Below, piece after piece: positions 1,423 to 49,530 of a stretch of DNA of 64,000 nt; position 1 is the stretch's first letter, and the number at the start of each line of letters is the position of its first letter. Both the position numbers and the translations under genes were made by a program. The notes under the pieces were generated by a model. The model ran no database searches. It was not told where the DNA came from and saw only the letters and a program-made list of their open reading frames with translations. This DNA comes from a virus, in IMG/VR virus record IMGVR_UViG_3300045988_101454, positions 32,001-96,000 of that record. One strand, written 5' to 3'.

Positions 1423-1454
1423 TGTTTTGTTGTTTTATAAATTTGTTATTTGTT

Positions 1455-2630
1455 TTACTTAGCCTTAAAATTATATATCGGCTTGATGCGCTTCACGATG
1501 TTCACAGTGTCGCCTATCAGTTCTTCAATCTCCTCTGCCGACTTGTACGCCATTGGTGCTTCGTCGATGGTGGACTCGCATACCGATGTGGAGTAGATGT
1601 CGTGCATCTGTTGGCGGTATTCTTCCATGCTGAGCTGCTTCTTTGCTGCCGAGCGCGACATCAGTCTGCCTGCACCGTGCGGAGCCGACTGAAGCCAGTC
1701 GTCGTTGCCCTTGCCAGTACACAGCAGCGAACCGTCGCGCATGTTCAGAGGGATAATCAGAGGCTCGCCCTTCTTTGCGCTCACAGCTCCCTTGCGGATA
1801 ATGCCGAAGGTGTCGATGTAGTTGTGCATGGTGGTGAACACACGACCTGTAGACTTTAGTTCAAGACCTTTGATTATGGTTTGCGCCATAAGAAAACGGT
1901 TCAAGTCGGCATAATGCTGACACAAGCGCATGGCATCATAGTAATCGCCAAGCGTGGGACCGCTAATGTAGGCCATGTCTTTAGAAACGGGTTTCAACCG
2001 GCGCAGCGCATCGTTTATCTCGCTCTGTCTGCCCTGAGCTTTCAGTTCGGAAATGATACGTCCACGTTCCTCACTGTTGTTGCATTGTCTTGATGCCAAC
2101 TGCTGAAAATGTCGGCATATCTTTACGCCTAAATTGCGGCTACCCGAATGTACTACAAGATACTTGCGTCCTTCGTCGTCCACGTCCACCTCAATAAAGT
2201 GGTTGCCACCGCCAAGGGTGCCGAGCGAACGCAGTACATAGTCGAGGTCAAAATATTGCTTCCACGGAGGCAAAAAACACCATATTTCATTGTGCATAAG
2301 GGAAACCATCTCTGACGACAAACGCTTCTCATGCACATTGAATCCGCTTGGAATGTTGTCGTTGATGATACGGTCGAGAATCTCCATATCAATGTTGGCA
2401 AAGCCTAAATCCCACACGAGCATACCACAGCCGATGTCTACGCCCATGGTGTTGGGCACCACTTTGCCGCGGGTCTCAATCACGGTGCCTACGGTGCATC
2501 CCTTTCCGGCATGGCAATCGGGCATAATGCGAATCTTACAGTTGCGGTAAGCCTCGCTCTCTGCCATCTGCCTTACTTGCTCCTGGGCTTCAGGTTCAAT
2601 GGTCTTTGCAAAAATCTTTAAGTCACTCAT
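1455..2630 (-). CDS. rtcB: RtcB-family RNA 3'-phosphate ligase
   Basis: 391 aa with motifs HAGKGCTVGTV, DIGCGM, GGGNHFIEV, VHSGSRNLG and PHGAGR. Confidence 0.9.
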   Translation of the reverse strand: MSDLKIFAKTIEPEAQEQVRQMAESEAYRNCKIRIMPDCHAGKGCTVGTVIETRGKVVPNTMGVDIGCGMLVWDLGFANIDMEILDRIINDNIPSGFNVHEKRLSSEMVSLMHNEIWCFLPPWKQYFDLDYVLRSLGTLGGGNHFIEVDVDDEGRKYLVVHSGSRNLGVKICRHFQQLASRQCNNSEERGRIISELKAQGRQSEINDALRRLKPVSKDMAYISGPTLGDYYDAMRLCQHYADLNRFLMAQTIIKGLELKSTGRVFTTMHNYIDTFGIIRKGAVSAKKGEPLIIPLNMRDGSLLCTGKGNDDWLQSAPHGAGRLMSRSAAKKQLSMEEYRQQMHDIYSTSVCESTIDEAPMAYKSAEEIEELIGDTVNIVKRIKPIYNFKAK

Positions 2631-2823
2631 TGTTCGTTGTTACTCTATAAATCCGTTAATAAAAAGAAATGTGCAGTGGTTGAGTTTTCCTTCTCCTCGC
2701 TCGTCTGCACCAAAGCCCGTTAATTACGTTTTACGGAGTGGTGACATGCGACACACTGAGTACGGTCCCTTGGCCTTCGGGATGAGTCTCTTTTATTGAA
2801 ACGCCTTTCTGCGGTTGCGTACC

Positions 2824-3195
2824 TTACAGCCGTTTGAGCAGCGTGCTGCATTTATGGCCTGATGCCTTTTCTTCGTAACCCAACCTTTCGTACCAATGCA
2901 ACACCCATGGAGGAGAATCGCGTCCGTCCCACGAGATTGCGACGGTCTCTACGCCGCAATACTTCAGCTCTTTTTCTACTGCCTCCATCAGTTTTTTTGC
3001 CACCTCACGGCCGCGGTGAGCTTCGTCAACCCACAGCGAGTAGATGAGAGCATCCGCTGCGCCATCCAAAGGTTTGTCTTCGGAATGATTAGGAATGAAC
3101 GCTTGTATGCTGCCATGATGCTGCTCGTCGGTGACGAGTATGCGAATAGAGTCTTCCCAATGTTGATGTTGTATCATAGTTGAAATGTTACGCAA
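2824..3195 (-). CDS. GNAT-family N-acetyltransferase
   Basis: 123 aa. LWVDEAHRGREVAKKLMEAVEKEL resembles the acetyl-CoA binding motif A. Confidence 0.7.
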   Translation of the reverse strand: MRNISTMIQHQHWEDSIRILVTDEQHHGSIQAFIPNHSEDKPLDGAADALIYSLWVDEAHRGREVAKKLMEAVEKELKYCGVETVAISWDGRDSPPWVLHWYERLGYEEKASGHKCSTLLKRL

Positions 3196-3249
3196 TTTTG
3201 TTTAGTCAGTCGACTGTCTGTATGCTTGTGCAAAGGTAGATTATCCCTT

Positions 3250-3618
3250 TTACTCGATACGGACATTCTCCTCGAAGTCGTATCTCACGTCTCGGCTTTG
3301 CGAAAAAGCCACAGGCGTTTGGGAGAAGATGTCTGCCTCACAGTCGGCAACGGCTCGCACGAACGCCTCGTACATCTTCTGTTCGTCATATTCTTCCAGA
3401 AAGCCCTGGCTTGTCTGCTGCCATAGCAGATCAGGGCGTTTGCCGTCCTTCTTGTTTCCTTTAACAATCAGCATGACACTTACGGAGTTTTCACCCTCGC
3501 GCACATCCGCACGAAGTATGCCGTAGCCAAGCGGTTTGCCAAAAGTGTAGCAACCACGATGATTCCCAAGAAAGCGGTAGCCGTAGTTTCGCAATGCCTT
3601 TATCACAAATTTTCTCAT
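3250..3618 (-). CDS. Hypothetical protein
   Basis: ORF-track frame. I prefer the ATG at 3616-3618 (MRKFVIKALRNYGY...). Confidence 0.5.
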   Translation of the reverse strand: MRKFVIKALRNYGYRFLGNHRGCYTFGKPLGYGILRADVREGENSVSVMLIVKGNKKDGKRPDLLWQQTSQGFLEEYDEQKMYEAFVRAVADCEADIFSQTPVAFSQSRDVRYDFEENVRIE

Positions 3619-3650
3619 ATTCAATTTTTTTTATAGTTCTACTAATACTT

Positions 3651-3794
3651 TTATCTCTGTATGCCCCCCTCCTGCGTATGCAGCGTGGGCGATATTCCTT
3701 TAGCGGAATACACGCGGCGGTTCTGCTCAAATATACGGTCGTAGGGTGGTGTCTGCATCATGCCGACTACGAGGGTGTGTGCGGTGTCAGTCAT
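3651..3794 (-). pseudogene. TRD-like mini-ORF 10 (C5-MTase target-recognition-like), frame set by a C6 tract
   Basis: MTDTAHTLVVGMMQTPPYDRIFEQNRRVYSAKGISPTLHTQEGG, then IQR and a stop. One extra G in tract 3664-3669 would give ...GGHTEIKVLVEL ending at 3631. ATGACTGA overlaps the upstream stop. Confidence 0.45.
3664..3669. repeat. C6/G6 homopolymer inside mini-ORF 10
   Basis: Sequence is atgcccccctcc. The tract length determines which C-terminal tail is read. Confidence 0.8.
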
Positions 3795-4485
3795 CGACAT
3801 CGATAAATCGGACCTTTGCTTCTGCAAACTTTTTCTCGCAAATAACACCAAGACCTTCAATGATGCCCAGGCATGATTTACATTCCAGACAGAATGTGGA
3901 GCATACATGAGGACCATCTTGATAGTACGGGCAGTTCGCCCCCTTTGCCATATAGAGTTTCTTGTCCTTCACAAAGGAATGAATTGCCTTTGCAAAACGC
4001 TCCAATTCCTTGTTCATCATTTCCACCGTGTCGCAATGATAGCGCAACTGGTTCATGTCGAAAGAAGTCTGCTTTGGCGTTTTTTCGTCATGCTGCTTCT
4101 CCGTTTCGTTCAACTGGCGTACCACGTCGTTGTAGTCGTCCATGAGCTGATGCACGCGCTGCTCAAGCTCCACGTTCTCTGCCTTCAAATCGGCGATGAT
4201 GTAGGCAAGCACCTCCATTCGGTTGTTCTTAGGTAGGTCTATATACTCGCATACAGCCAGATGTCTTTCCATATACTTGCGTTGCTCGTCAGTAGCGGGG
4301 TCGTAGGCATCGGCTGTTCGTGTGCCTACGCGATAGGGTGGAGGTGGGGTCTGAAAAATTCTTCGCATATCGGTAATTGCCGAATACTTCACCACTCCAT
4401 CTTCGTCTACTCGCGCTACCTTTACCAACATCTTTCGCTCTTTGTCGTAAAGGATGTCGCCAGGGGTGATTTCTTCTGTTTTCAT
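3787..4485 (-). CDS. Hypothetical coiled-coil protein with Cys-rich C-terminus
   Basis: 232 aa with C-terminal CPYYQDGPHVCSTFCLECKSC. Leader is AAACAATAGAGACAATG. Confidence 0.6.
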   Translation of the reverse strand: MKTEEITPGDILYDKERKMLVKVARVDEDGVVKYSAITDMRRIFQTPPPPYRVGTRTADAYDPATDEQRKYMERHLAVCEYIDLPKNNRMEVLAYIIADLKAENVELEQRVHQLMDDYNDVVRQLNETEKQHDEKTPKQTSFDMNQLRYHCDTVEMMNKELERFAKAIHSFVKDKKLYMAKGANCPYYQDGPHVCSTFCLECKSCLGIIEGLGVICEKKFAEAKVRFIDVDD

Positions 4486-4509
4486 TGTCTCTATTGTTTT
4501 TATTACATA

Positions 4510-5073
4510 TTATACAACAGCGAAATTATTGTCTTGCTGCTTCCGTTTTTGTCCTTCCTTGCAAACTATCTTGCCTCTGTCCTTCAGTCGGAGGCAGAAA
4601 TATTCACAATTCCAACACGCACAGCTATCCACTCTTACTGTTTCGAAATTTTCTTTGCAGAATGGGTCTCCAGTCTCCACCATATCGTGAGGACATTCTG
4701 TGTTTTTTACGAGAGCGAACCCTTTTTCCTCAAGCAGGTCGATAAGGGTGCTGCGCTCTCTCTTTAAGTTCACGTTCTCGCTTCGCAAGTTGGCAAGCGC
4801 GTTTCTGAGGTTGTCAGTCTCACGTCCTTGCGCTATGTTAGCGTTGCAGACGTTGGTGTAACCCTTATACAATTCCTTGAGATTGGCCTCCGTATTTTCC
4901 AGTTCCGCCACCACATCCTCATGCTTGTTTTCCAGATTGCGGAGATTCTTTACTACTCTTTTATAGCCTCTGGAAAAACGACGTATTTTTAGTTTCATAG
5001 CCTCGTTTTCGGCTACCAACTCTCCATAACGCCTCGCATCTGCAACACGCTTTTTCCATTCCTGATGTTTCAT
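4510..5073 (-). CDS. Hypothetical coiled-coil protein with Cys-rich C-terminus
   Basis: 187 aa with CPHD...CKEN...CACWNCEYFC. It has the same 17-nt leader (AAACAATAGAGACAATG) as 3787-4485. Confidence 0.6.
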   Translation of the reverse strand: MKHQEWKKRVADARRYGELVAENEAMKLKIRRFSRGYKRVVKNLRNLENKHEDVVAELENTEANLKELYKGYTNVCNANIAQGRETDNLRNALANLRSENVNLKRERSTLIDLLEEKGFALVKNTECPHDMVETGDPFCKENFETVRVDSCACWNCEYFCLRLKDRGKIVCKEGQKRKQQDNNFAVV

Positions 5074-5096
5074 TGTCTCTATTGTTTATGTTTTTT

Positions 5097-5264
5097 TTAA
5101 TTATACAACATACTCATTAATGCCGCAGCCCTTCTCTTGTCGGTAAATCCTTTGATGTTTACCCACTTGCCGAAGATGCAGTCTCCGACTCTTTTCTGAA
5201 CCATCCAGACGGTCACGGGTATGCAACCGTTGTAGGCATCCATCGGAACAATTCTTAGTTTCAT
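5097..5264 (-). CDS. Small hypothetical protein (55 aa)
   Basis: MKLRIVPMDAYNGCIPVTVWMVQKRVGDCIFGKW... It is below the ORF-track size cutoff and fills the gap between flanking genes. Confidence 0.35.
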   Translation of the reverse strand: MKLRIVPMDAYNGCIPVTVWMVQKRVGDCIFGKWVNIKGFTDKRRAAALMSMLYN

Positions 5265-5267
5265 ATC

Positions 5268-5447
5268 TTATTCAAATTTATATACTATATGCGGTGTGGT
5301 GTTGCCCAGTCCGTCGCGAGGGTCGGCAAAGCAGCCAGGCGGTGAGGTTGTCACGGCATTGGCTATCTGCTTGCGCGGTCGGCTCTTTACGAGGCCCTTA
5401 CCGTCCTTGCCGCTGCGTACCCATCCGATGTAATACTTATCAGTCAT
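5268..5447 (-). CDS. TRD-like mini-ORF 11 (59 aa)
   Basis: MTDKYYIGWVRSGKDGKGLVKSRPRKQIANAVTTSPPGCFADPRDGLGNTTPHIVYKFE. ATGA overlaps the stop of 5444-6250. Confidence 0.4.
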   Translation of the reverse strand: MTDKYYIGWVRSGKDGKGLVKSRPRKQIANAVTTSPPGCFADPRDGLGNTTPHIVYKFE

Positions 5448-6250
5448 CGGTCTGCGTTTTGCCCTGTCCCCAATCGTTCAATAGACTGGCATAATATCCC
5501 TTGTATTCTACCTGCCTCTTGCTCTGCCCTCTTTAGAGCTTCGTCACGCTCATGCTCCAGCTTTATGCAATATTCAGTCAAGCGATTGTATTCTTTCTGC
5601 AAGGCATTGAAATCCTCGCGCAGCTGCTCCAAATTGGGGTTTTCAGAATCCAATAACACAAGACGTTGCTTTTCCTTGTCCCATCTTTTCCCGATTTTCT
5701 CCACGGAATTGTTGAGAAGTTTTTCTTCCGTAGGCGTAGCGTATCTCAGTTCGATGCTTTTTTCTTCTTCGCGTGTACCGCGAAGGTCAAGCTGAGCGTT
5801 AAAAGTAAGCACGTCGCTGTTTTTGCATAAGCAGGCGTATGTCCTTATCTTGGGATAATCAGTAGATTCCACTCCGCTGAAAATCACAATGTAGGTCAGA
5901 ATGTTGCCATCTTCATACTTAATATCCATTGCCACGATGTCACCCGGCTGGAATTTGAGCACATTCCAACTTCGGTAAAGATGCGAGAGAAACAGCATAC
6001 ACTCTCCTTTGTCAAAACGCGCTATACGCCCGTTGTAAAGAAAAAAATGGTCGTATGCTTCATTCTCGTCAGGATGATGGAGGCCCAGCACAACACCCGA
6101 GGCGTTGAAATTATGCACCTCCATATAACCTAACAGAGGCGAATAAAGCATAGCGTCTACAGGCAAACTGTGGAGAAAAGCTGATAGTTTCTCATTCTCG
6201 AAAGTTTTTGCTCCCGTTTTAGGGATGCTTCTTGTTTCTTTTTGACTCAT
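5444..6250 (-). CDS. Hypothetical protein, paralog of 44270-44794
   Basis: 268 aa. Shared blocks are FLHSLPVDAMLYSPLLGY, GECMLF...RSWNVLKFQPGDIVAMD and RYATPTEEK. Confidence 0.65.
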   Translation of the reverse strand: MSQKETRSIPKTGAKTFENEKLSAFLHSLPVDAMLYSPLLGYMEVHNFNASGVVLGLHHPDENEAYDHFFLYNGRIARFDKGECMLFLSHLYRSWNVLKFQPGDIVAMDIKYEDGNILTYIVIFSGVESTDYPKIRTYACLCKNSDVLTFNAQLDLRGTREEEKSIELRYATPTEEKLLNNSVEKIGKRWDKEKQRLVLLDSENPNLEQLREDFNALQKEYNRLTEYCIKLEHERDEALKRAEQEAGRIQGILCQSIERLGTGQNADR

Positions 6251-6270
6251 AATGTCTCTATTTTAAATTG

Positions 6271-6422
6271 TTATTCATATTCTATCAATACAATGGTGTG
6301 CTGTCCGTGTTCATCGTAGAGCCCTGCCCATCCGTCGTAGCGGGCGGACAATGCCGTGGAATACCCCCCCGACGTGGGCAGAGCTGGGATGTGCGTTGTA
6401 CGAAAGGGATTTGTTTAATCAT
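6271..6422 (-). pseudogene. TRD-like mini-ORF 9, out of frame at a C7 tract
   Basis: MIKQIPFVQRTSQLCPRRGG, then out of frame. G8 instead of G7 would restore ...GGYSTALSARYDGWAGLYDEHGQHTIVLIEYE. ATGATTAA overlaps mini-ORF 8. Confidence 0.45.
6364..6370. repeat. C7/G7 homopolymer in mini-ORF 9
   Basis: Sequence is ataccccccc gacg. It is one nt short of the frame that gives the conserved tail. Confidence 0.85.
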
Positions 6423-6590
6423 ACGTTATCAATACCATATTGTCTTTGCCTACTGATGTGAGGGTGTTGGTTGTCCCCCCCCCCCGTTTATCTCCATTCG
6501 CTGAAAGAAGCGTCCGTTGGAGGGATGCTTGCGGTTGGACGGATTATCGGGGGCACGGCCTCGGAAGGCTGCTATGCGAAAGTCAATCAT
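6415..6590 (-). pseudogene. TRD-like mini-ORF 8, out of frame at a C11 tract
   Basis: MIDFRIAAFRGRAPDNPSNRKHPSNGRFFQRMEINGGG. With G9 or G12 it continues TTNTLTSVGKDNMVLITYD. As sequenced (G11) it stops at 6450. Confidence 0.45.
6475..6485. repeat. C11/G11 homopolymer in mini-ORF 8
   Basis: Sequence is ttgt + 11 C + gttt. This is the longest G/C tract in the window. Confidence 0.9.
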
Positions 6591-6876
6591 CCCCATTCCA
6601 TTTTTCATCATCCACAGTTCGTGCTATGAATATGCGATATGGGTTCTTCTTGTCTGTACTGGTTAGCTCTATTGCTTTTTCGATACTCTCCCTCGATACA
6701 AAGTCGCGTATCATCAACACTGCAAGGGCATCGAACTCGTCGTCCGACAAACAAACAGTATCTTCTCCTCGGCGGATAGTAACAAAGTCGCAAATAGTGT
6801 TGTGCCCGAAAGCCACATCAACATCTTCATTACGTTCGAGGTCTCTGACTATTATTTTTTCTGCGTAAAGACTCAT
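6583..6876 (-). CDS. Hypothetical protein
   Basis: 97 aa ORF that interrupts the mini-ORF run. Confidence 0.55.
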   Translation of the reverse strand: MSLYAEKIIVRDLERNEDVDVAFGHNTICDFVTIRRGEDTVCLSDDEFDALAVLMIRDFVSRESIEKAIELTSTDKKNPYRIFIARTVDDEKWNGDD

Positions 6877-6903
6877 ATTTCTTTTTGTTTATTATTTGTA
6901 CTA

Positions 6904-7080
6904 TTAATCGTAACATATTGCAATCAGATTGTCAGTGGTGAGGGAAGTACCTATACATTGCATCCAACATCCTTGTCGCAGATGCCATTCCTTATCACGG
7001 AAGTCGTTAGTGCCGATTAAGCGACGCACGGCTTTCGCGTGTTCGGTTCTGGCTTCGTGTATCAGATGAATGTTAAGCAT
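6904..7080 (-). CDS. TRD-like mini-ORF 7 (58 aa)
   Basis: MLNIHLIHEARTEHAKAVRRLIGTNDFRDKEWHLRQGCWMQCIGTSLTTDNLIAICYD. It is a paralog of mini-ORF 6. Confidence 0.5.
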   Translation of the reverse strand: MLNIHLIHEARTEHAKAVRRLIGTNDFRDKEWHLRQGCWMQCIGTSLTTDNLIAICYD

Positions 7081-7244
7081 AATAGGTTGTCTTTTGTTAC
7101 AGTTGTTATCGAATTGCTCCACGGCCACGGACTGGGGCGGTGATACTTTTCGCCGTATTTACACCCTCCGCGGTCGCCATGCTCACGACGGAAGGCTTTG
7201 GCTTCCTCGGTGCGGTAGTGGACGAGGACGGAACGGTCAATCAT
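7062..7244 (-). CDS. TRD-like mini-ORF 6 (60 aa)
   Basis: MIDRSVLVHYRTEEAKAFRREHGDRGGCKYGEKYHRPSPWPWSNSITTVTKDNLLCLTFI. ATGATTGA overlaps mini-ORF 5. Confidence 0.5.
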   Translation of the reverse strand: MIDRSVLVHYRTEEAKAFRREHGDRGGCKYGEKYHRPSPWPWSNSITTVTKDNLLCLTFI

Positions 7245-7386
7245 ACTCTATCAATATTTTCGGTTTATCCACGTCGTGACCCTTACCTCCCCCGGCTATG
7301 CACAAGGCTATGCCGTGTGGTGACACGATGATGCCGTTCTGCGAGGGGCTGTAGGAGCCAAGGATGATGGGGCGAGGGTTGTTCAT
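7237..7386 (-). CDS. TRD-like mini-ORF 5 (49 aa)
   Basis: MNNPRPIILGSYSPSQNGIIVSPHGIALCIAGGGKGHDVDKPKILIEYD. ATGA overlaps mini-ORF 4. Confidence 0.5.
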   Translation of the reverse strand: MNNPRPIILGSYSPSQNGIIVSPHGIALCIAGGGKGHDVDKPKILIEYD

Positions 7387-7550
7387 AATTCTACTGCTAC
7401 ATAATAGTGGTTACGACTGCTCACTCCAGCTTGAATGGTGTAGATGATACCCCTCCCGAATTGCTTGTTCTAGGTGTCTATCCATACGGCATGAGAGGGG
7501 CGGAAACCACGTTTGTACATTATTTCTAAGCGAGCGTTCTTGTTAAGCAT
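7383..7550 (-). CDS. TRD-like mini-ORF 4 with in-frame TAG at 7470-7472
   Basis: MLNKNARLEIMYKRGFRPSHAVWIDT-TAG-NKQFGRGIIYTIQAGVSSRNHYYVAVEL. The coupled start and stop are kept only if the TAG is read through. Confidence 0.4.
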
Positions 7551-7679
7551 ATTCAATCAGTACCCCTCCAGTTTTGTTGACAAGGTTAGGGTGGGGTATA
7601 TTCCTTTAGTACCGCAGATGTTGCCATCAAAACCGGACTTCCACTTGTCGTAATAAATGTTGCCAATCTTTTCAATCAT
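7543..7679 (-). pseudogene. TRD-like mini-ORF 3, frameshifted at a G4 run
   Basis: MIEKIGNIYYDKWKSGFDGNICGTKGIYPTLTLSTKLEG, then a stop at 7557. One extra G at 7563-7566 would give ...LEGVLIEYA and the usual ATGCTTAA overlap. Confidence 0.45.
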
Positions 7680-7827
7680 ATTCTACTATTACTGCCGTTG
7701 CTGCCCTGCCTCCCGTTGGCTTAATGAAATTCACCAAAGAATTGCGTTGGTACTGCGACTTAACGCATCGACATAACGCGGGAGAGGTAGAGACACTATC
7801 AGGGTTTAATGCTTTTATAAAAACCAT
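7672..7827 (-). CDS. TRD-like mini-ORF 2 (51 aa)
   Basis: MVFIKALNPDSVSTSPALCRCVKSQYQRNSLVNFIKPTGGRAATAVIVEYD. TAATG overlaps mini-ORF 1. Confidence 0.45.
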   Translation of the reverse strand: MVFIKALNPDSVSTSPALCRCVKSQYQRNSLVNFIKPTGGRAATAVIVEYD

Positions 7828-7952
7828 TATTCAAACTCATACAATACTACTGCCATTGGGTAATGGGCGAGCGTGAGGATGTTGGTAGGTCCGATAGCCT
7901 CGTAGCGTGTGGTTATGGTTGCCGCACAACATCCGTCAGTAACATTCACCAT
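7827..7952 (-). CDS. TRD-like mini-ORF 1 (41 aa)
   Basis: MVNVTDGCCAATITTRYEAIGPTNILTLAHYPMAVVLYEFE. It is in the same frame as the 8001-8441 ORF, separated from it by TAA. Confidence 0.45.
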   Translation of the reverse strand: MVNVTDGCCAATITTRYEAIGPTNILTLAHYPMAVVLYEFE

Positions 7953-8000
7953 CAGTCCGCTACCCCATTCAGACGGAATGGAGGTGCGACGTGGGTCAGC

Positions 8001-8441
8001 TTACACTCCATCCTTCTTCCTCTCCATATTTTCTTTGAACAATTCCTCAAATCCCTCGAATGGGAACGTGTGGTAATTGCAGAACGATTTCCAATAGCTA
8101 TCAAACACGAGTCGCATACCCTCTATACTATCCGCCAATTCGTCAAGCTCCATATCCCATCCGTTGATGGTGTTTATGAGGTTTTGTAGCCACGTCTTGA
8201 GGAACATTGCCGCCTCGTGTGTCGGTGGCAGGTCGAACTGAAGGAATAGGGCGTTGTCAGAGTCGTTGGTCGTGAGGAACTTGCTCACGGCATCGTCCTT
8301 GAGGAAATAGCGGCCGGACACTTCCTCTTCGAGCACGTCTTCCAGTCGGGTAAGTAGCTCGAAGGGTTCGGGAAACTGGTAGTCGAAGGCCACGTCACGG
8401 CGCATGGAGAGGCAGAACACCCTGTCGCGGTTTTGTGGCAC
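8001..8441 (-). CDS. C5 cytosine DNA methyltransferase fragment (motif VIII only) fused to an unrelated C-terminal region
   Basis: Starts (GTG)PQNRDRVFCLSMRRDVAFDYQFPEP...LEDVLEEEVSGRYFL. Homology continues upstream as NYGV across an in-frame TAG at 8451-8453. Motifs I, IV, VI, IX and X were not found anywhere in the window. Confidence 0.6.
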   Translation of the reverse strand: MPQNRDRVFCLSMRRDVAFDYQFPEPFELLTRLEDVLEEEVSGRYFLKDDAVSKFLTTNDSDNALFLQFDLPPTHEAAMFLKTWLQNLINTINGWDMELDELADSIEGMRLVFDSYWKSFCNYHTFPFEGFEELFKENMERKKDGV

Positions 8442-8513
8442 GCCGTAGTTCTAGTCGTTGTAGTGGGTTTGTGGGGAGTCTTGGTTTTGTTAAAGTTCAT
8501 GGGGGTTGGTGTT

Positions 8514-9149
8514 TTATCGTCTTACTTCCAGCCATGTGTTACAGCGACCGATCCCAAACTTTGCAGCCACCGCACAAAAACTCTTGTCGTGATGACCAGA
8601 CCGACAAGTCCCTAAGTCAGCACAGGTATCACAGCCGAAATCCATATAATCTGGATGATACCATACCTTGTCGCCAATCTCACGGATATAGCCTCTCTTT
8701 GTATCTACCACCAAGGTTCTTCCGACGGAATTTCTTTTGGGTTTATTCACAACAACCTTATACCGATTGTTTTTCTTCCTTACGACATGACATTCATTAC
8801 GCATCGACCATCTCGGGTCAAAAACACGGAAGTCAATGCGCCACTTTTTGGGAAAATGGAACTTCTTCGGGTCGCAATAGTTGGAAAGTACTTTGCGGTC
8901 AGTAGAAACAATCTCTTCCCAGTTGTCACAACAACGAAGTACGTCAACCCTCCATCCTATGCGACGCTGTACTATATCTAACAGCGATGGATAATTACGC
9001 GGCTTCTCCCAGATTCCTCTAAAGTAAAGATTGTATCTGTCAAGCAGCACCTTGTTTCTTGCTTTCATAGTCTTTATAAATTCTTTTATATTGTTAATGT
9101 TTTCGCATTGAGCTGAAATCTTTGTTTCACCAATATGCTCTTTGAGCAA
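8514..9149 (-). CDS. Hypothetical Cys-rich protein
   Basis: 211 aa with C-terminal CDTCADLGTCRSGHHDKSFC...GRC. Start is uncertain (TTG in the track). Confidence 0.5.
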   Translation of the reverse strand: MLKEHIGETKISAQCENINNIKEFIKTMKARNKVLLDRYNLYFRGIWEKPRNYPSLLDIVQRRIGWRVDVLRCCDNWEEIVSTDRKVLSNYCDPKKFHFPKKWRIDFRVFDPRWSMRNECHVVRKKNNRYKVVVNKPKRNSVGRTLVVDTKRGYIREIGDKVWYHPDYMDFGCDTCADLGTCRSGHHDKSFCAVAAKFGIGRCNTWLEVRR

Positions 9150-9351: not shown

Positions 9352-9819
9352 CTATTCATCTTTGAGGTTCAACTTCTCTTGCCATTCTGGGTCGTGTATA
9401 TCACCGACAATCTCAAAGTCCTCAAGTTTCTGTTGCGTGATTCCGTCAGAGATGCCATCAGAGATGCCACGCACAGCGGATTTCGGGTTTTTGACACAGG
9501 TGAGAAAAAACATCGCCTCTTCATCACTCCACCCTATAATGCCAAAGTAATTGTCACGCGCACCATCCTCCATGCGACTGAATGGGTATTCGTCCGAGCG
9601 AAGAAGATCGCCCTCATAAATCTCCTTACCGTTCTTGTCGAGGTAGCCGGTGAACTGGCAGACGGTGCGAGGGTCAACCTTGTAGGGGATGTTTCTATTC
9701 AACATACTTTCCTTTTGCCTATCCTCGATAATGTATGTGTTATCATTCTCCTCGTAGAAGTAACCACAAGTCCATTCTTTATTATCAAGGCGTTTAGCCT
9801 TAAACTTGATTGTTCTCAT
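9352..9819 (-). CDS. YopX-like phage protein
   Basis: MRTIKFKAKRLDNKEWTCGYFYEE... has a typical YopX N-terminus. It ends in TAG. Confidence 0.55.
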   Translation of the reverse strand: MRTIKFKAKRLDNKEWTCGYFYEENDNTYIIEDRQKESMLNRNIPYKVDPRTVCQFTGYLDKNGKEIYEGDLLRSDEYPFSRMEDGARDNYFGIIGWSDEEAMFFLTCVKNPKSAVRGISDGISDGITQQKLEDFEIVGDIHDPEWQEKLNLKDE

Positions 9820-37291: not shown

Positions 37292-38144
37292 ATGATAACA
37301 GAGAATTTACAGAAAAAGATTGATCGTGCCATCCGTCTGCTTCAAGGCATACAGAAGTTATACGATGGCGAGATAGAGATAGCCTATTCGGGCGGTAAGG
37401 ACTCCGACGTGATCCTTCAACTGGCGAAAGAGTCCGGCATCAAGTATCGAGCCATATACAAGAATACGACCATCGACTCGCCAGGCACGTTGGGGCACGT
37501 CAGGGAAATGGGAGTGGAGATACTGCGGGCAAGATTCCCTTTTTTTCATCTCGTGGCGCAGAAAGGATTTCCATCTCGCTATAGTCGTTTCTGTTGTGAA
37601 AAACTGAAGGAATATAAGGTGCTCAACAAAAGCATTATCGGCGTGCGCAAGGCTGAGAGCTGGAAACGAAACGAAAGATACAACGAGCCAACAAAGTGCC
37701 GATACTACGGAGCGAAGAAAGAGGAAAATCACGTAGAACAGATTTATCCTATTCTGGAATGGACCGATGAGGACGTGCGCAACTTCATCATAGACAGAAA
37801 GTTGAAACTCGCACCCATTTATTACAATTCGGGGGGGGCAAATCGACGTGTCGAAACGTCTCGGCTGCATGTGCTGCCCTCTCGCCTCAAGGCGCAAGCG
37901 CATTATCGAGTTTCAGAAATATCCCAAGATAGCAAAGGCTTATCTCCGTGCGGGGCAACGATTTATGGAAACGCATCCTGACAGCAAGGCGTGCCAGAGG
38001 TACGACAACGTTTACGAATGGTTCACTCGCGACGTATTTTACAGCTCCGATACAGATTGGAACAAGGTAAGCACAGGGCTGTTCGGTAAGCCGGACTTCA
38101 AGAAGTTCTTGGAGGACAAGTTCTGTATTGACTTGACATTATAA
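37292..38144 (+). pseudogene. PP-loop ATPase (PAPS reductase/DndC-like superfamily), frameshifted at a G8 tract
   Basis: Has the SGGKDS PP-loop. G7 instead of G8 would join ...IYYNSGGQIDVSKRLGCMCCPLASRRK.... Two track ORFs overlap here. Confidence 0.7.
37831..37838. repeat. G8 homopolymer in PP-loop ATPase gene
   Basis: Sequence is aattc + 8 G + caaatc. It is one nt longer than the in-frame length. Confidence 0.9.
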
Positions 38145-38478: not shown

Positions 38479-39088
38479 ATGAACAACAACATAAAAAGAA
38501 AGGACTGGGTGGGCGGCTCGGCCGCTGTATTCAAGACGTTGGGCGCAAGCAACCATACGGATGCGGATAGACAGCGTGAGGATTACTATGCCACAGAACC
38601 GAAAGCGACGGAATGGCTGTGCAAACTGGAGCATTTTGAGGGCCGGATATTGGAGCCTTCGTGTGGCGAGGGTCACATGAGCCGGGTGTTGGAGGCAGCA
38701 GGATATGAGGTGGTGAGCCGCGACCTTGTGGATAGAGGTTACGGCGAGGTGGCTGACTTCCTCTCAATAGACAACTTGGCGTGGGACGGAAACATCATCA
38801 CCAATCCGCCCTACAAATTCGCACAGCAGTTCGTTGTGAAGGCTCTGAGCATCATCCCCGAAGGAAAGAAAGTGGCGATGTTCCTTAAGCTAACTTTCCT
38901 CGAAGGCAAGGCTCGACGCACTCTCTTCCGTTCTACCCCCCCCCATTCGTGTTTGGGTAAGCTCGTCACGACTGAAATGCGCTCCAAACGGCGACTTCAA
39001 CGCTATTGTTGGCAGCGCAACGGCTTACGCATGGTTTGTATGGGAGAAAGGATATAAAGGCGAGACAACTGTAAAATGGTTTAACTGA
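38479..39088 (+). pseudogene. N6-adenine-type DNA methyltransferase (motif I then NPPY), frameshifted at a C9 tract
   Basis: ILEPSCGEGHMSRVL and IITNPPYKF. C8 instead of C9 would give ...TPPIRVWVSSSRLKCAPNGDFNAIVGSATAYAWFVWEKGYKGETTVKWFN. Confidence 0.7.
38936..38944. repeat. C9 homopolymer in methyltransferase gene
   Basis: Sequence is ttcta + 9 C + attcg. It is one nt longer than the in-frame length. Confidence 0.9.
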
Positions 39089-48402: not shown

Positions 48403-49011
48403 TTAGAACGGCAAATCCTCGTCTTCCGCCGGATTATAACCGCCAAGGTCTACGCCGCTTGATTCTGCCGGTGCCACATAGCCGGTGGCTGCACCTGCTA
48501 CGCCTACATTCGGTGTAGCATAAGGCGACGGCTGCTGTGTGGGCTGTGGTTGGTAGAGCATAGCCAGTCGCTTGTTCAGACGCTGACGGATAGCCTTAAA
48601 GAGGTGGGTGTTCTCGTCGGTTGGGTCTTGGCTCACGATGTCAGGGTCACGTTCCTTGTTTGCCTCCTTCACCTGCTCCACGAGCTTAGGGTATTTCTTT
48701 ACCGCTACCTTGACGAAATCTACAGAGAAAGACATCTGCATTTCGTGTGTGGGAACAGTAACGTTTGTGTCGCCACGCTCCATTGCCGAACGACGCACGG
48801 TGTTTTTGTAGTTCTCGTTCAGTGGCCAGATATTCACACGCATCTTCGCCAGTGTGCGGTCGGGCTTCTGCGGATGCTGCTCCACTTTTATTTCGTTCAA
48901 GTCTGCCGGGATGCAGACGTACACTCGTTCGGGGTTGTTCTTGTCGATACCCTTGAATACCTGCGCTCCGTTTAGAGAGAGCAGGTCAATGTTGCCGTTG
49001 TAACTTGCCAT
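48403..49011 (-). CDS. Single-stranded DNA-binding-like protein with SSB-type acidic tip
   Basis: 202 aa with a Pro/Gln/Gly-rich linker. The C-terminus (AEDEDLPF) resembles the DDDIPF tip of bacterial SSB. Confidence 0.55.
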   Translation of the reverse strand: MASYNGNIDLLSLNGAQVFKGIDKNNPERVYVCIPADLNEIKVEQHPQKPDRTLAKMRVNIWPLNENYKNTVRRSAMERGDTNVTVPTHEMQMSFSVDFVKVAVKKYPKLVEQVKEANKERDPDIVSQDPTDENTHLFKAIRQRLNKRLAMLYQPQPTQQPSPYATPNVGVAGAATGYVAPAESSGVDLGGYNPAEDEDLPF

Positions 49012-49296: not shown

Positions 49297-49530
49297 TTAT
49301 TTACATTCTACTTTAGAAAAAGAAGGGCGTAGCACTTCATAATACTCTATTTGTTCAATGTCATCAACAGAATAACTCTCGGTGCAATATTCTTCAAAGT
49401 ACTTGCAGGGTTCTTTCCCTATTGGATAGTCTATGATATATTTTCCTTCTGCATCAATCTTATCATAGTCTATATAGCGACCTTTACATGGTGTAAACTT
49501 TTCAAAAATTTTAGGAGTGAATACCAACAA
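49297..49530 (-). CDS. Hypothetical protein
   Basis: 77 aa ORF. Confidence 0.45.
   Translation of the reverse strand: MLVFTPKIFEKFTPCKGRYIDYDKIDAEGKYIIDYPIGKEPCKYFEEYCTESYSVDDIEQIEYYEVLRPSFSKVECK

What the first reader, a model, noticed from the sequence alone, without database searches (positions are those of the whole stretch)
3631..8489. Run of at least 11 translationally coupled mini-ORFs, each resembling one C5-methyltransferase target-recognition module, downstream of a motif-VIII-only fragment
The ORF track misses most of these mini-ORFs because they are under 60 aa. On the minus strand there is first a Dcm fragment (NYGVPQNRDRVF). Eleven ORFs of 41-60 codons follow, at 7952-7827, 7827-7672, 7679-7543, 7550-7383, 7386-7237, 7244-7062, 7080-6904, 6590-6415, 6422-6271, 5447-5268 and 3794-3631.

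Each carries the segment that C5 methyltransferases repeat in their variable region. Examples are RVYSAKGISPTLHTQEGG, GTKGIYPTLTLSTK, SPHGIALCIAGGGKGHDVDKPKILIE, SNSITTVTKDNLL, TTNTLTSVGKDNMVL, GTSLTTDNLI, CCAATITTRYEAIG and YSTALSARYDG. Each ends in a hydrophobic run followed by E-(Y/F/L)-(D/E/A).

Neighbours are joined by ATGA, TAATG, ATGATTGA or ATGCTTAA overlaps, so they are built as separate coupled cistrons and do not look like random debris of one ORF. The tails are conserved at the protein level but not at the nucleotide level.

Five of the eleven carry a conditional defect: tracts G6, G7 and G11, a G4 frameshift, and an in-frame TAG. No catalytic core (motifs I, IV, VI, IX, X) is present in the window.

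Possible readings are:
- free-standing specificity modules that work with a core enzyme encoded elsewhere;
- a silent or phase-variable cassette bank for methylation specificity;
- methyltransferase or restriction decoys;
- an unusually structured decay product of a multispecific phage methyltransferase.

I know of no described system with this layout.
Basis: partly seen in the sequence, partly recalled or inferred. Interest (0 to 1): 0.85.

Follow-up and report, generated by a model that had tools for sequence, protein, structure and literature searches.

The report
Free-standing methyltransferase specificity mini-genes, orphaned
A gut phage carries a row of tiny genes that each encode one DNA-recognition module of a cytosine methyltransferase; related phages keep these next to a catalytic core that has no recognition module, but in this window the core has been cut away and about half the mini-genes are broken.

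Summary
On the minus strand, 8453-3631, a C5-methyltransferase fragment (motif VIII onward) is followed by 11 mini-ORFs of 41-60 codons, joined by 1-, 4-, 8- or 19-nt stop/start overlaps. Five are broken: G4, G6, G7 and G11 tracts and one TAG.

The mini-ORFs are real genes:
- In 93 related loci, 464 same-strand small ORFs carry the tail, against 7 on the opposite strand.
- They form about 25 families, with dN/dS of 0.08-0.24 in most.
- At least 14 families match internal tandem TRD modules of long multi-TRD PF00145 proteins.

More than 140 related phage contigs encode a homolog of the circularly permuted core (IX-X-I..VIII) that has no TRD. All 79 loci examined have mini-genes around it (1-12, median 5), and 71 of 80 cores are intact. 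Sixty-nine distinct arrays occur among the 79 loci.

In this window a deletion of about 2.4 kb removed the upstream mini-genes and the first ~282 core codons. This copy is therefore most likely an inactive remnant.

The inferred mechanism, not shown, is that each mini-protein docks in trans on the core and supplies one specificity. I found no published description of this layout. It is a new variant of multispecific, split and permuted C5 methyltransferases.

The parts
8001..8468 (-). 3' remnant of a circularly permuted, TRD-less C5 DNA methyltransferase core. It holds motif VIII (NYGVPQNRDRVF), the conserved post-VIII hinge segment and a variable ~90-aa C-terminal extension. It corresponds to residues 283-439 of intact relatives.
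   Evidence: PF00145 positions 146-217. tblastn of P0001 gives 66% identity over residues 283-439 and nothing else in the window. Intact 435-442-aa homologs occur in relatives.
8461..8519 (-). Deletion junction. Relatives carry about 2.4 kb here (L014 4480-6854), holding the upstream mini-gene array and roughly the first 282 codons of the core.
   Evidence: blastn of the window against related loci: window 9070-8520 matches L014 3929-4479, and window 8460-8194 matches L014 6855-7121.
7827..7952 (-). m1: intact TRD mini-gene, 41 aa, family F09/F23.
   Evidence: ORF. 95% identical copy in L004. Family assignment.
7672..7827 (-). m2: intact TRD mini-gene, 51 aa, family F19. 1-nt overlap with m1 (TAATG).
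   Evidence: F19 matches modules inside long PF00145 proteins.
7543..7679 (-). m3: TRD mini-gene, family F13, frameshifted at G4 (7563-7566). The repaired reading is ...GIYPTLTLSTK-GGVLIEYA.
   Evidence: A single-frame copy, 96% identical, is in L001.
7383..7550 (-). m4: TRD mini-gene with an in-frame TAG at 7470-7472. A relative (L004) reads Tyr here.
   Evidence: 91% identical intact copy in L004. Matches modules in long PF00145 proteins.
7237..7386 (-). m5: intact TRD mini-gene, 49 aa, family F01. This is the most prevalent family (53 of 79 loci) and has dN/dS 0.08.
7062..7244 (-). m6: intact TRD mini-gene, 60 aa (RTEEAK...SNSITTVTKDNLL type).
   Evidence: blastp matches in 23 long multi-TRD PF00145 proteins, best E 1.6e-8.
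6904..7080 (-). m7: intact TRD mini-gene, 58 aa, a paralog-like relative of m6.
6583..6876 (-). x97: unrelated 97-aa ORF sitting inside the array. Its stop overlaps the start of m8 by 8 nt.
   Evidence: No Pfam family.
6415..6590 (-). m8: TRD mini-gene, family F12 (RGR.PDNPS...NTLTSVGKDN type), frameshifted at G11 (6475-6485).
   Evidence: Intact 57-aa homologs are called as genes in more than 100 protein clusters. The same module occurs inside multi-TRD C5 methyltransferases. L013 has a different tract and an intact frame.
6271..6422 (-). m9: TRD mini-gene, family F02, frameshifted at G7 (6364-6370).
   Evidence: Among relatives G5 and G8 are in frame while G6, G7 and G9 are out of frame.
5268..5447 (-). 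m10: intact TRD-like mini-gene, 59 aa, family F04. ATGA overlap with the unrelated 268-aa ORF upstream of it (5444-6250).
3631..3794 (-). m11: TRD mini-gene (RVYSAKGISPTLHTQEGG type), frameshifted at G6 (3664-3669). 8-nt overlap with the 232-aa ORF upstream of it.
   Evidence: L013 has G7 and an intact frame. It matches modules in 28 long PF00145 proteins.

Best explanation
The window holds the downstream half of a split, multispecific cytosine-5 DNA methyltransferase system. It belongs to a tailed gut phage of roughly 90-100 kb, possibly a Prevotella phage.

In intact relatives the system has two parts.
1. A circularly permuted catalytic core. Its order is motifs IX-X, a linker, motifs I-VIII, the conserved post-VIII hinge, and a ~90-aa extension. 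It has no target-recognition domain (TRD).
2. An array of translationally coupled mini-genes of 40-60 codons on both sides of the core. Each encodes exactly one TRD module. Each ends in a shared hydrophobic beta-strand followed by E-Y-D/E.

Inferred mechanism: each mini-protein docks non-covalently on the core. Its C-terminal strand sits where a covalent TRD runs into motif IX. This rebuilds the small DNA-recognition domain and gives one sequence specificity. The mix of mini-proteins then makes the phage DNA methylated at many motifs, and so resistant to many restriction enzymes.

The arrays turn over quickly by gain and loss of cassettes. Single cassettes are often knocked out at poly-G tracts.

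In this window a deletion of about 2.4 kb removed the upstream mini-genes and the first ~282 codons of the core. Five of the 11 remaining mini-genes are broken. Here the locus is most likely an inactive remnant.
For: Shown:
- The mini-ORFs are selected coding genes. Pooled dN/dS is 0.08-0.24 in most families, at synonymous divergence 0.3-0.5.
- The tail occurs in 464 same-strand small ORFs against 7 on the opposite strand.
- The F12 family is called as a stand-alone ~57-aa protein in more than 100 clusters.
- They are TRD modules. The F12 profile finds 908 proteins at E<=1e-3 among 1.84 billion, and many are internal tandem modules of long proteins. All ten of those that I scanned hit PF00145.
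- 14 further families or window mini-ORFs match other modules in those same proteins.
- The F21 mini followed by the core N-terminus aligns colinearly with M.HhaI residues 238-318, E 8e-11.
- Inserting the repaired window m11, or F21, at the TRD position of the un-permuted core joins two PF00145 stretches into one covering model positions 23-322. The score rises by 12.3 and 5.8 bits. A shuffled mini also joins the stretches but adds only 1.9 bits.
- The core is permuted and TRD-less. The motif order is visible, and its best PF00145 stretch ends at model position 218.
- 143 viral contigs encode a relative of the core. In the 80 loci kept the match spans essentially the whole protein, and 71 of 80 have an intact ORF.
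- Co-location: every one of 79 core-bearing loci has 1-12 intact mini-genes (median 5) within 6 kb.
- The arrays are colinear but show 69 different compositions in 79 loci. They differ even between cores that are at least 97% identical.
- AlphaFold2 of an F12 mini gives pLDDT 84. It predicts three strands and two long loops, with the tail as the third strand.
- The deletion in the window is mapped.

Against: - No direct evidence of a core-mini complex or of any methylation.
- AlphaFold2 of the core failed (pLDDT 34). A fusion construct could not be submitted.
- Neither the PDB sequence search nor Foldseek links a mini to a solved TRD.
- Mini-genes persist in core-less genomes: this window's lineage, found identically in two assemblies, and L013 with m8 and m11 intact. 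A core-independent role is therefore not excluded.
- F04 (m10) copies, all split across two frames, also lie in L007/L008, which carry an ordinary-order methyltransferase.
- The variable C-terminal extension of the core has no assigned role and could itself contact DNA.
- About 25 kb of this phage's genome is outside the data seen, so a second C5 core elsewhere cannot be ruled out.
Confidence: 0.6

Rival explanations
1. This is an add-on to the main model, not an exclusive rival. The poly-G tracts lie at the Gly-Gly site just before the docking strand. They may act as contingency tracts that switch single specificities on and off by slipped-strand mispairing. Separate ORFs would allow each specificity to be toggled without killing the enzyme. 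That would be useful where a methylated motif protects against a type II enzyme but exposes the phage to a methyl-dependent one.
For: - Three of the seven G/C runs of 6 or more bases in 64 kb lie in the mini-genes.
- Among relatives the same site carries G4-G11 or no tract, and the frame follows the tract length. The broken fractions are m9 18 of 68, m8 8 of 41, and m11 12 of 32.
- A 98%-identical relative from another sample differs at exactly these tracts, and m8 and m11 are in frame there.
- A diverged, GC-richer relative (L099) has G10 and G7 tracts in mini-genes. The G7 lies at the same site as in m9/F02.
Against: - Many alleles have no tract at all. For m8, 25 of 41 copies lack any run of 4 or more G, so the tract is not conserved.
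- GGN GGN codons generate G runs by themselves.
- All data are consensus assemblies, so no within-population heterogeneity is visible.
- Long G runs are error-prone in short-read data.
- The window's tract lengths are identical in two assemblies, which looks fixed rather than switching.
Confidence: 0.35
2. The mini-proteins are functional but do not serve the adjacent core. They could act as decoys or inhibitors of host restriction or methylation enzymes. They could also be specificity modules for another core encoded by the host or elsewhere in the phage genome.
For: - Mini-genes remain, some intact, in genomes whose core is deleted or disrupted. Examples are the window, L013, L107, and 9 of the 80 related loci.
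- F04 copies also occur beside an ordinary-order methyltransferase in L007/L008.
Against: - The adjacent core lacks precisely the segment that the mini-genes encode.
- Every core-bearing locus has mini-genes on one or both sides.
- The core-less lineages are very recent. The window and L013 are 100% identical across most mini-genes, so persistence there says little.
- No similarity to any known anti-restriction family was found. A Pfam scan of the mini-genes found no methyltransferase or other relevant family, only two sub-threshold chance matches for m7.
Confidence: 0.12
3. The mini-ORFs are debris of a single multispecific methyltransferase ORF that was broken up by frameshifts, or they are an assembly artefact.
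For: - Five of the 11 are visibly broken in this window.
- Single-chain enzymes with many tandem TRDs exist in related environments.
Against: - The same start/stop architecture recurs in the 79 related loci examined. An in-built ATG sits 5 nt before the stop in about 80% of cases, and TAT is chosen over TAC 331 to 35.
- Purifying selection acts on each ORF separately.
- The ORFs lie in different frames, each with its own Met.
- The window sequence is identical in two assemblies.
- Independent gene callers list the 57-aa proteins.
Confidence: 0.03
4. Recoding such as frameshifting or readthrough joins the mini-ORFs to each other, or to the core, to make covalent TRD-core proteins.
For: - The 8-nt overlaps place neighbouring ORFs one base out of frame with each other.
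- The last upstream mini-ORF ends only about 10 nt before the core's start codon.
Against: - Every cassette has its own ATG, and that ATG is under nucleotide-level selection.
- Overlaps of 1, 4, 8 and 19 nt, and gaps, give different frame relations, so no single shift rule would work.
- No fused form appears among the 120 closest core homologs, which are all 439-458 aa.
- Downstream mini-ORFs could never be joined to the core's N-terminus in this way.
Confidence: 0.03

Closest known systems
Multispecific phage C5 DNA methyltransferases (Bacillus phages SPR, phi3T, rho11s, H2; characterised by the Trautner, Walter and Noyer-Weidner groups; from my own knowledge)
   Same: One catalytic core serves several TRD modules of about 40-50 aa, and each module gives its own target. 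The mini-ORFs are sequence homologs of such tandem modules in long multi-TRD PF00145 proteins from metagenomes. The module boundary '..LVLEP' corresponds to the mini tail '..ILIEYD'. The likely purpose is the same: protecting phage DNA against several restriction systems.
   Different: In those enzymes all TRDs lie in one polypeptide between motifs VIII and IX. Here each TRD is a separate, translationally coupled gene, the core carries none, and the core is circularly permuted.
Natural circularly permuted C5 methyltransferases (M.BssHII, M.Alw26I, M2.Eco31I, M.Esp3I, M2.BsaI; PMC5944983)
   Same: Motifs IX-X precede motifs I-VIII in one polypeptide.
   Different: All natural permutants described there are 'type H'. 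[quoted passage not shown] Here the protein starts about 15 residues before motif IX and ends after the post-VIII hinge plus a helical extension. The TRD is excised on both sides.
Split C5 methyltransferase M.AquI (alpha and beta subunits) and artificial fragment complementation of M.HhaI, M.SssI, M.BspRI and M.BsuRI (PMC5944983, PMC3404938)
   Same: Activity is reconstituted from separate polypeptides split in the variable region. This shows that a non-covalent small domain is feasible. Beta-like ORFs (TRDs-IX-X ending in ..QLTLF) occur among the relatives found here.
   Different: Those are two-part enzymes in which the TRD stays joined to IX-X. Here the detached part is the TRD alone (40-60 aa), in many alternative versions per genome.
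Type I restriction-modification specificity subunits (HsdS) and phase-variable methyltransferases ('phasevarions'; from my own knowledge)
   Same: The functional logic is similar: a separate specificity component for a common catalytic subunit. The repertoire is changed by cassette exchange, and there may be homopolymer-driven on/off switching.
   Different: There is no homology. HsdS is a ~400-aa two-TRD protein for N6-adenine methyltransferases. The systems known so far are cellular, and none uses ~50-aa peptides with a C5 enzyme.

Membership tests
C5 cytosine DNA methyltransferase (PF00145) | Catalytic motifs I (FxGxG), IV (PCQ), VI (ENV), VIII (QxRxR), IX and X present in the locus | tested here: not met
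   In the window only motif VIII and the post-VIII segment are present. In relatives all motifs are present in permuted order, with PF00145 at 165 bits.
C5 cytosine DNA methyltransferase (PF00145) | The mini-ORFs individually match the family profile | tested here: not met
   No PF00145 hit for any of nine mini-ORFs at E<=1. They add score only when placed in context, +5.8 to +12.3 bits.
Multispecific phage C5 methyltransferase (SPR/phi3T type) | Several TRD modules of about 40-60 aa, homologous to known tandem TRD modules | tested here: met
   The F12 profile matches internal modules of multi-TRD PF00145 proteins at E 1e-19 to 1e-10. 14 other families or window mini-ORFs match at E 1e-4 to 1e-13 in a small database.
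Multispecific phage C5 methyltransferase (SPR/phi3T type) | TRDs and catalytic motifs lie in one polypeptide in canonical order I-VIII, TRDs, IX-X | tested here: not met
   Each TRD has its own ATG and stop. The core is permuted and TRD-less.
Multispecific phage C5 methyltransferase (SPR/phi3T type) | Each TRD confers a distinct methylation target | not testable with these tools
   This needs methylome or in vitro assays.
Circularly permuted C5 methyltransferase, type H (M.BssHII-like) | Motifs IX-X lie N-terminal to motifs I-VIII | tested here: met
   Met in relatives. The window retains only the C-terminal third.
Circularly permuted C5 methyltransferase, type H (M.BssHII-like) | [quoted passage not shown] | tested here: not met
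   The core starts MITKLNFTDRTIKSYAIRKLTP.., about 15 residues before motif IX. Its best PF00145 stretch ends at model position 218 and is separate from the N-terminal IX-X stretch. The definition of type H is from PMC5944983.
Split C5 methyltransferase (M.AquI type) | Two subunits: alpha with I-VIII and beta with TRD-IX-X | tested here: not met
   I-VIII and IX-X are fused in one chain, and only the TRD is separate. Beta-like ORFs exist in other lineages such as L094, L097 and P0248.
Homopolymer contingency (phase-variable) locus | Homopolymer inside the coding sequence, with length differing among close relatives and setting the frame | tested here: met
Homopolymer contingency (phase-variable) locus | Length heterogeneity within one population, and reversible switching | not testable with these tools
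   Only consensus assemblies are available.

The most novel reading that the evidence does not exclude
A C5 DNA methyltransferase holoenzyme built from one TRD-less permuted core and a pool of exchangeable ~50-residue specificity peptides. Each peptide is encoded by its own coupled mini-gene and can be switched individually at a poly-G tract. This would give the phage a combinatorial, bet-hedging repertoire of methylation motifs that turns over much faster than the rest of the genome.
Probability: 0.35. Interest if true: 0.9.

Novelty: new variant of a known kind. Interest (0 to 1): 0.75.

Why it matters
If the mini-proteins act in trans, they would be the smallest known DNA-sequence specificity subunits: about 45-60 residues, predicted as three strands and two loops. 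They would also be the first case of a C5 methyltransferase whose specificity is supplied by separate, interchangeable polypeptides.

That would do three things:
- Explain how abundant gut phages keep pace with the very diverse restriction systems of their hosts.
- Provide a natural library of at least 25 portable recognition modules for engineering targeted cytosine methylation.
- Make the long-standing question of how multispecific methyltransferases present one TRD at a time directly testable, using simple two-plasmid experiments.

For annotation, these genes are currently either missed as too short or labelled 'hypothetical protein'. The core is labelled an ordinary Dcm.

Tried and rejected
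- Megablast of the region against 50,697 GenBank phage records: no match. A protein search there found no close relative of the core, with all 89 records below 60% identity and none covering 80% of the query.
- An exact search for the deletion junction in IMG/VR: no match.
- A look-up of the 211-aa neighbouring ORF with its TTG start: not on record.
- Pfam on nine single mini-ORFs: no methyltransferase or other relevant family.
- A profile of the F21/m11/F14 mini-genes against PDB sequences: only chance matches.
- AlphaFold2 of the core with 28 sequences at 90% identity or more: pLDDT 34, unusable and not interpreted.
- Foldseek of the confident F12 mini model against the PDB: nothing below E 6.
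- dN/dS between the window and its core-less sister L013: uninformative, because most mini-genes are 100% identical.
- Pfam on the core's C-terminal extension and on the non-TRD ORFs inside the array: nothing above threshold.
- Rfam scan of the whole window: no RNA family.
- Considered and rejected: alternative genetic code. The ORFs change frame, so stop reassignment cannot join them.
- Considered and rejected: an intron or homing-endonuclease insertion in the core. The missing part is simply absent, and the flanks match relatives.

Full report
**1. The observation**

On the minus strand between 8453 and 3631 the window reads NYGVPQNRDRVF... This is PF00145 model positions 146-217, E 2.8e-6. 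Their junctions are as described:
- TAATG (m1/m2).
- 8-nt overlaps of the form ATGNTTRA or ATGACTGA (m2/m3, m3/m4, m5/m6, x97/m8, m8/m9, orf232/m11).
- ATGA (m4/m5, orf268/m10).
- 19 nt (m6/m7).

Five are defective:
- m3 at a G4 tract (7563-7566).
- m4 through an in-frame TAG (7470-7472).
- m8 at G11 (6475-6485).
- m9 at G7 (6364-6370).
- m11 at G6 (3664-3669).

No other C5-methyltransferase motif occurs in any frame of the 64 kb. A full-length relative matches the window only with its residues 283-439. The window belongs to a tailed phage, with a tape measure protein, a head maturation protease and a sliding clamp.

**2. What relatives show**

The window is 100% identical over 9 kb to two ENA metagenome contigs (L011, L012). 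It is 98% identical to a Logan contig (L013).

Searching IMG/VR with a neighbouring gene, and then with the methyltransferase, found 10 and then 143 related phage contigs. Eighty loci were kept from the second search. In these the 'motif-VIII fragment' is the C-terminal third of a 435-442-aa protein with this order:
- motif IX (IRKLTPKECFRLMG)
- motif X (QAGNSI)
- a linker
- motif I (FSGYDSQ)
- motif IV (SPCQDIS)
- motif VI (QENV)
- motif VIII (QNRDRVF)
- the conserved post-VIII segment
- a variable extension of about 90 aa

This is shown. Its best PF00145 stretch covers model positions 23-218, and the N-terminal IX-X part forms a separate stretch. The part of the model where the TRD sits is missing.

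The family is abundant. 7718 of 8000 scored candidates had E<=1e-5. Sources name it DNA (cytosine-5)-methyltransferase, in two cases from Prevotella bins. Host assignment is tentative, because other bins carrying it have other names.

The window lacks about 2.4 kb that relatives have between the 211-aa ORF and core codon ~283. That stretch holds the upstream mini-genes and about two thirds of the core.

**3. The mini-ORFs are genes**

- In the 93 loci, 464 of 3251 same-strand ORFs of 30-90 aa end in E-[YFL]-x, against 7 of 3493 on the other strand.
- They cluster into about 25 families.
- Pooled pairwise dN/dS is 0.08-0.24 for almost all families with enough data, at synonymous differences of 0.3-0.5 per site.
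- Window copies that are frameshifted (m3, m8, m9, m11) are single-frame in relatives.
- The F12 family (m8) is called as a 57-aa 'hypothetical protein' in more than 100 protein clusters from independent assemblies.
- In about 80% of roughly 400 mini-ORFs an ATG lies 5 nt before the stop.
- The penultimate Tyr codon is TAT in 331 cases and TAC in 35, against 45% TAT internally. The last codon starts with G in 364 of 401 cases.

The terminal Y-[D/E/A/V] is therefore largely the imprint of the next cistron's start codon. The preceding hydrophobic run and the Glu are the protein-level part of the tail.

**4. They are TRD modules**

A profile of F12 searched against 1.84 billion representative proteins gave 908 hits at E<=1e-3 and 122 at E<=1e-10. 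Many are internal segments of proteins of 200-620 aa. All ten that I scanned hit PF00145. The sequences show rows of tandem modules followed by motifs IX and X, which makes them multispecific C5 methyltransferases or their beta-like halves.

Although those proteins were selected only through F12, local BLASTP finds modules in them homologous to other families:
- F03, F04, F05, F08, F10, F11, F13, F15, F19, F20 and F21.
- Window mini-ORFs m3, m4, m6 and m11.
- E-values run from 1e-4 to 1e-13 in a database of about 30,000 residues.

An F21 mini-ORF followed by the core N-terminus aligns as one colinear segment with M.HhaI residues 238-318, E 8e-11. From my own knowledge, residues 233-240 and 250-257 of M.HhaI are the two recognition loops.

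I tested the effect of placing a mini at the canonical TRD position of the un-permuted core:

| Insert | PF00145 score (bits) |
|---|---|
| none | 166.8 |
| F21 | 172.6 |
| repaired window m11 | 179.1 |
| shuffled F21 | 168.7 |

With any of the three inserts, the two PF00145 stretches merge into one covering model positions 23-322.

AlphaFold2 of an F12 mini with a 73-sequence alignment gives pLDDT 84. It predicts three beta-strands (3-12, 29-35, 51-55) and two long loops, with the tail as the third strand. Foldseek finds nothing similar in the PDB. A profile of the F21-like mini-genes finds nothing in PDB sequences. The link to solved TRD structures therefore rests on sequence only.

**5. Architecture and dynamics of the system**

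- Each of 79 core-bearing loci has 1-12 intact tail-bearing mini-genes (median 5) within 6 kb, on either or both sides of the core.
- The order of families is colinear, but presence and absence vary. There are 69 distinct arrays in 79 loci.
- Only 3 of 10 pairs with at least 99% identical cores share the same intact set. None of 9 pairs at 97-99% do.
- Chimeric mini-genes in the databases document deletions between cassettes.
- G-tract length at the Gly-Gly site before the tail ranges from G4 to G11, or the tract is absent. The length decides the frame. The broken fractions are m9 18 of 68, m8 8 of 41, and m11 12 of 32.
- In L013 the tracts differ from the window, and m8 and m11 are in frame.
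- The core itself is disrupted in 9 of 80 loci, in two cases at a C7 run in the motif IX codons.
- More distant versions of the system exist. L096 and L099 have the same layout.
- A second lineage (L094, L097, L098) places a row of TRD small ORFs before a separate IX-X ORF of 104-136 aa next to SSB. Two samples give the same ORF structure.
- Those IX-X ORFs end in ..QLTLF. The same peptide sits in the linker of the permuted core. This suggests, by inference, that the core arose by fusion of a beta-like (IX-X) gene and an alpha-like (I-VIII) gene.

**6. Most likely mechanism**

Shown: a TRD-less core, TRD-only mini-genes under purifying selection, tight co-location, and translational coupling.

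Inferred: each mini-protein binds the core non-covalently. Its C-terminal strand occupies the place where a covalent TRD enters motif IX. The small domain is thereby completed, and the two loops read the DNA. Different mini-proteins compete for the core and give a multispecific activity that protects phage DNA from restriction.

Two lines support feasibility. Natural and artificial C5 methyltransferases bisected in the variable region complement efficiently (PMC5944983). In single-chain multispecific enzymes, TRDs already behave as interchangeable modules (from my own knowledge).

Separate cistrons would also allow single specificities to be lost or switched, for example at G tracts, without destroying the enzyme. 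This is attractive but unproven.

**7. What this window itself is**

The core is truncated, the upstream array is gone, and 5 of 11 mini-genes are broken. The sister contig L013 has lost still more. The simplest reading is a recently inactivated locus in decay.

Two caveats apply. About 25 kb of the genome is unseen. The intact mini-genes here are too similar to their relatives to test for relaxed selection.

**8. Comparison and novelty**

The system combines features of three known kinds:
- Multispecific phage C5 methyltransferases.
- Circularly permuted C5 methyltransferases. All natural ones described are type H, with the TRD attached (PMC5944983).
- The split enzyme M.AquI.

It fails a defining feature of each; see the membership table. 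Four literature searches found no description of free-standing TRD mini-genes. GenBank phage records hold no close relative. I rate it a new variant of a known kind. The window copy is a degenerate example, and the interest lies mainly in the intact relatives.

Noticed in passing
window 27254 (C6), 37831 (G8), 38936 (C9), 49264 (G9): These are the only other G/C homopolymers of 6 or more bases in the window. G8 lies inside the + strand ORF 37292-37981. C9 lies inside the + strand ORF 38479-39057. G9 lies between minus-strand ORFs 48403-49011 and 49297-49530. They may be further slippage-prone sites.
   Followed up: no
window 4510-5073 and 3787-4485 (minus strand): Two ORFs (187 and 232 aa) with a coiled-coil region and a C-terminal Cys-rich motif (CPHD..C..CxC..C / CPYY..C..C..C..C) sit inside the TRD array, here and in relatives. 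orf232 is coupled to m11 by an 8-nt overlap. No Pfam family was found.
   Followed up: partly
window 1455-2630, 2824-3195, 9352-9819; L012 10424-11038: RtcB RNA ligase, a GNAT acetyltransferase and a YopX-family protein flank the locus. An N6/N4 DNA methyltransferase lies just beyond the left end of the window.
   Followed up: no
L095 (Bacillus phage Deep Blue NC_031056) 1445-3727: Two tandem C5 methyltransferase genes (Blue_147 and Blue_146) abut with no gap between them. The permuted core aligns in one piece across their boundary. This is a plausible duplication-and-fusion route to circular permutation.
   Followed up: partly
L108/L109 5001-5513: A different phage (RecT, Tad2-like, YopX) carries only the 'post-VIII segment plus helical extension' of the core, as a 170-aa ORF. 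It is 78% identical to the window fragment and occurs on 7 contigs. It lies next to a 349-aa ORF with a CxxxCxxC motif. Many other C-terminal fragments of 100-233 aa exist in the protein collection. Whether this piece has a function of its own is open.
   Followed up: partly
L094 1-1451; L097 81-1199; L098: A second phage lineage has a row of overlapping TRD small ORFs with acidic tails, followed by a separate ORF of 104-136 aa carrying only motifs IX-X (with one TRD attached in L094). That ORF ends in QLTLF and is directly upstream of SSB. The I-VIII part was not on these contigs.
   Followed up: partly
L055, L078 (core codons 23-25); L087 (codon ~197); L107 4861-4962: The core gene itself is disrupted in 9 of 80 related loci. 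In two of them the break is at a C7 run inside the motif IX codons, and in one it is near a G7 run. L107 has a lesion between motifs IV and VI while all its mini-genes look intact.
   Followed up: partly
proteins P0243, P0246, P0257, P0295: These are chimeric small proteins that join the front of one cassette to the back of another: F12/F09, m6/F12, F01/F12, and core N-terminus/F12. They record deletions between array elements.
   Followed up: no
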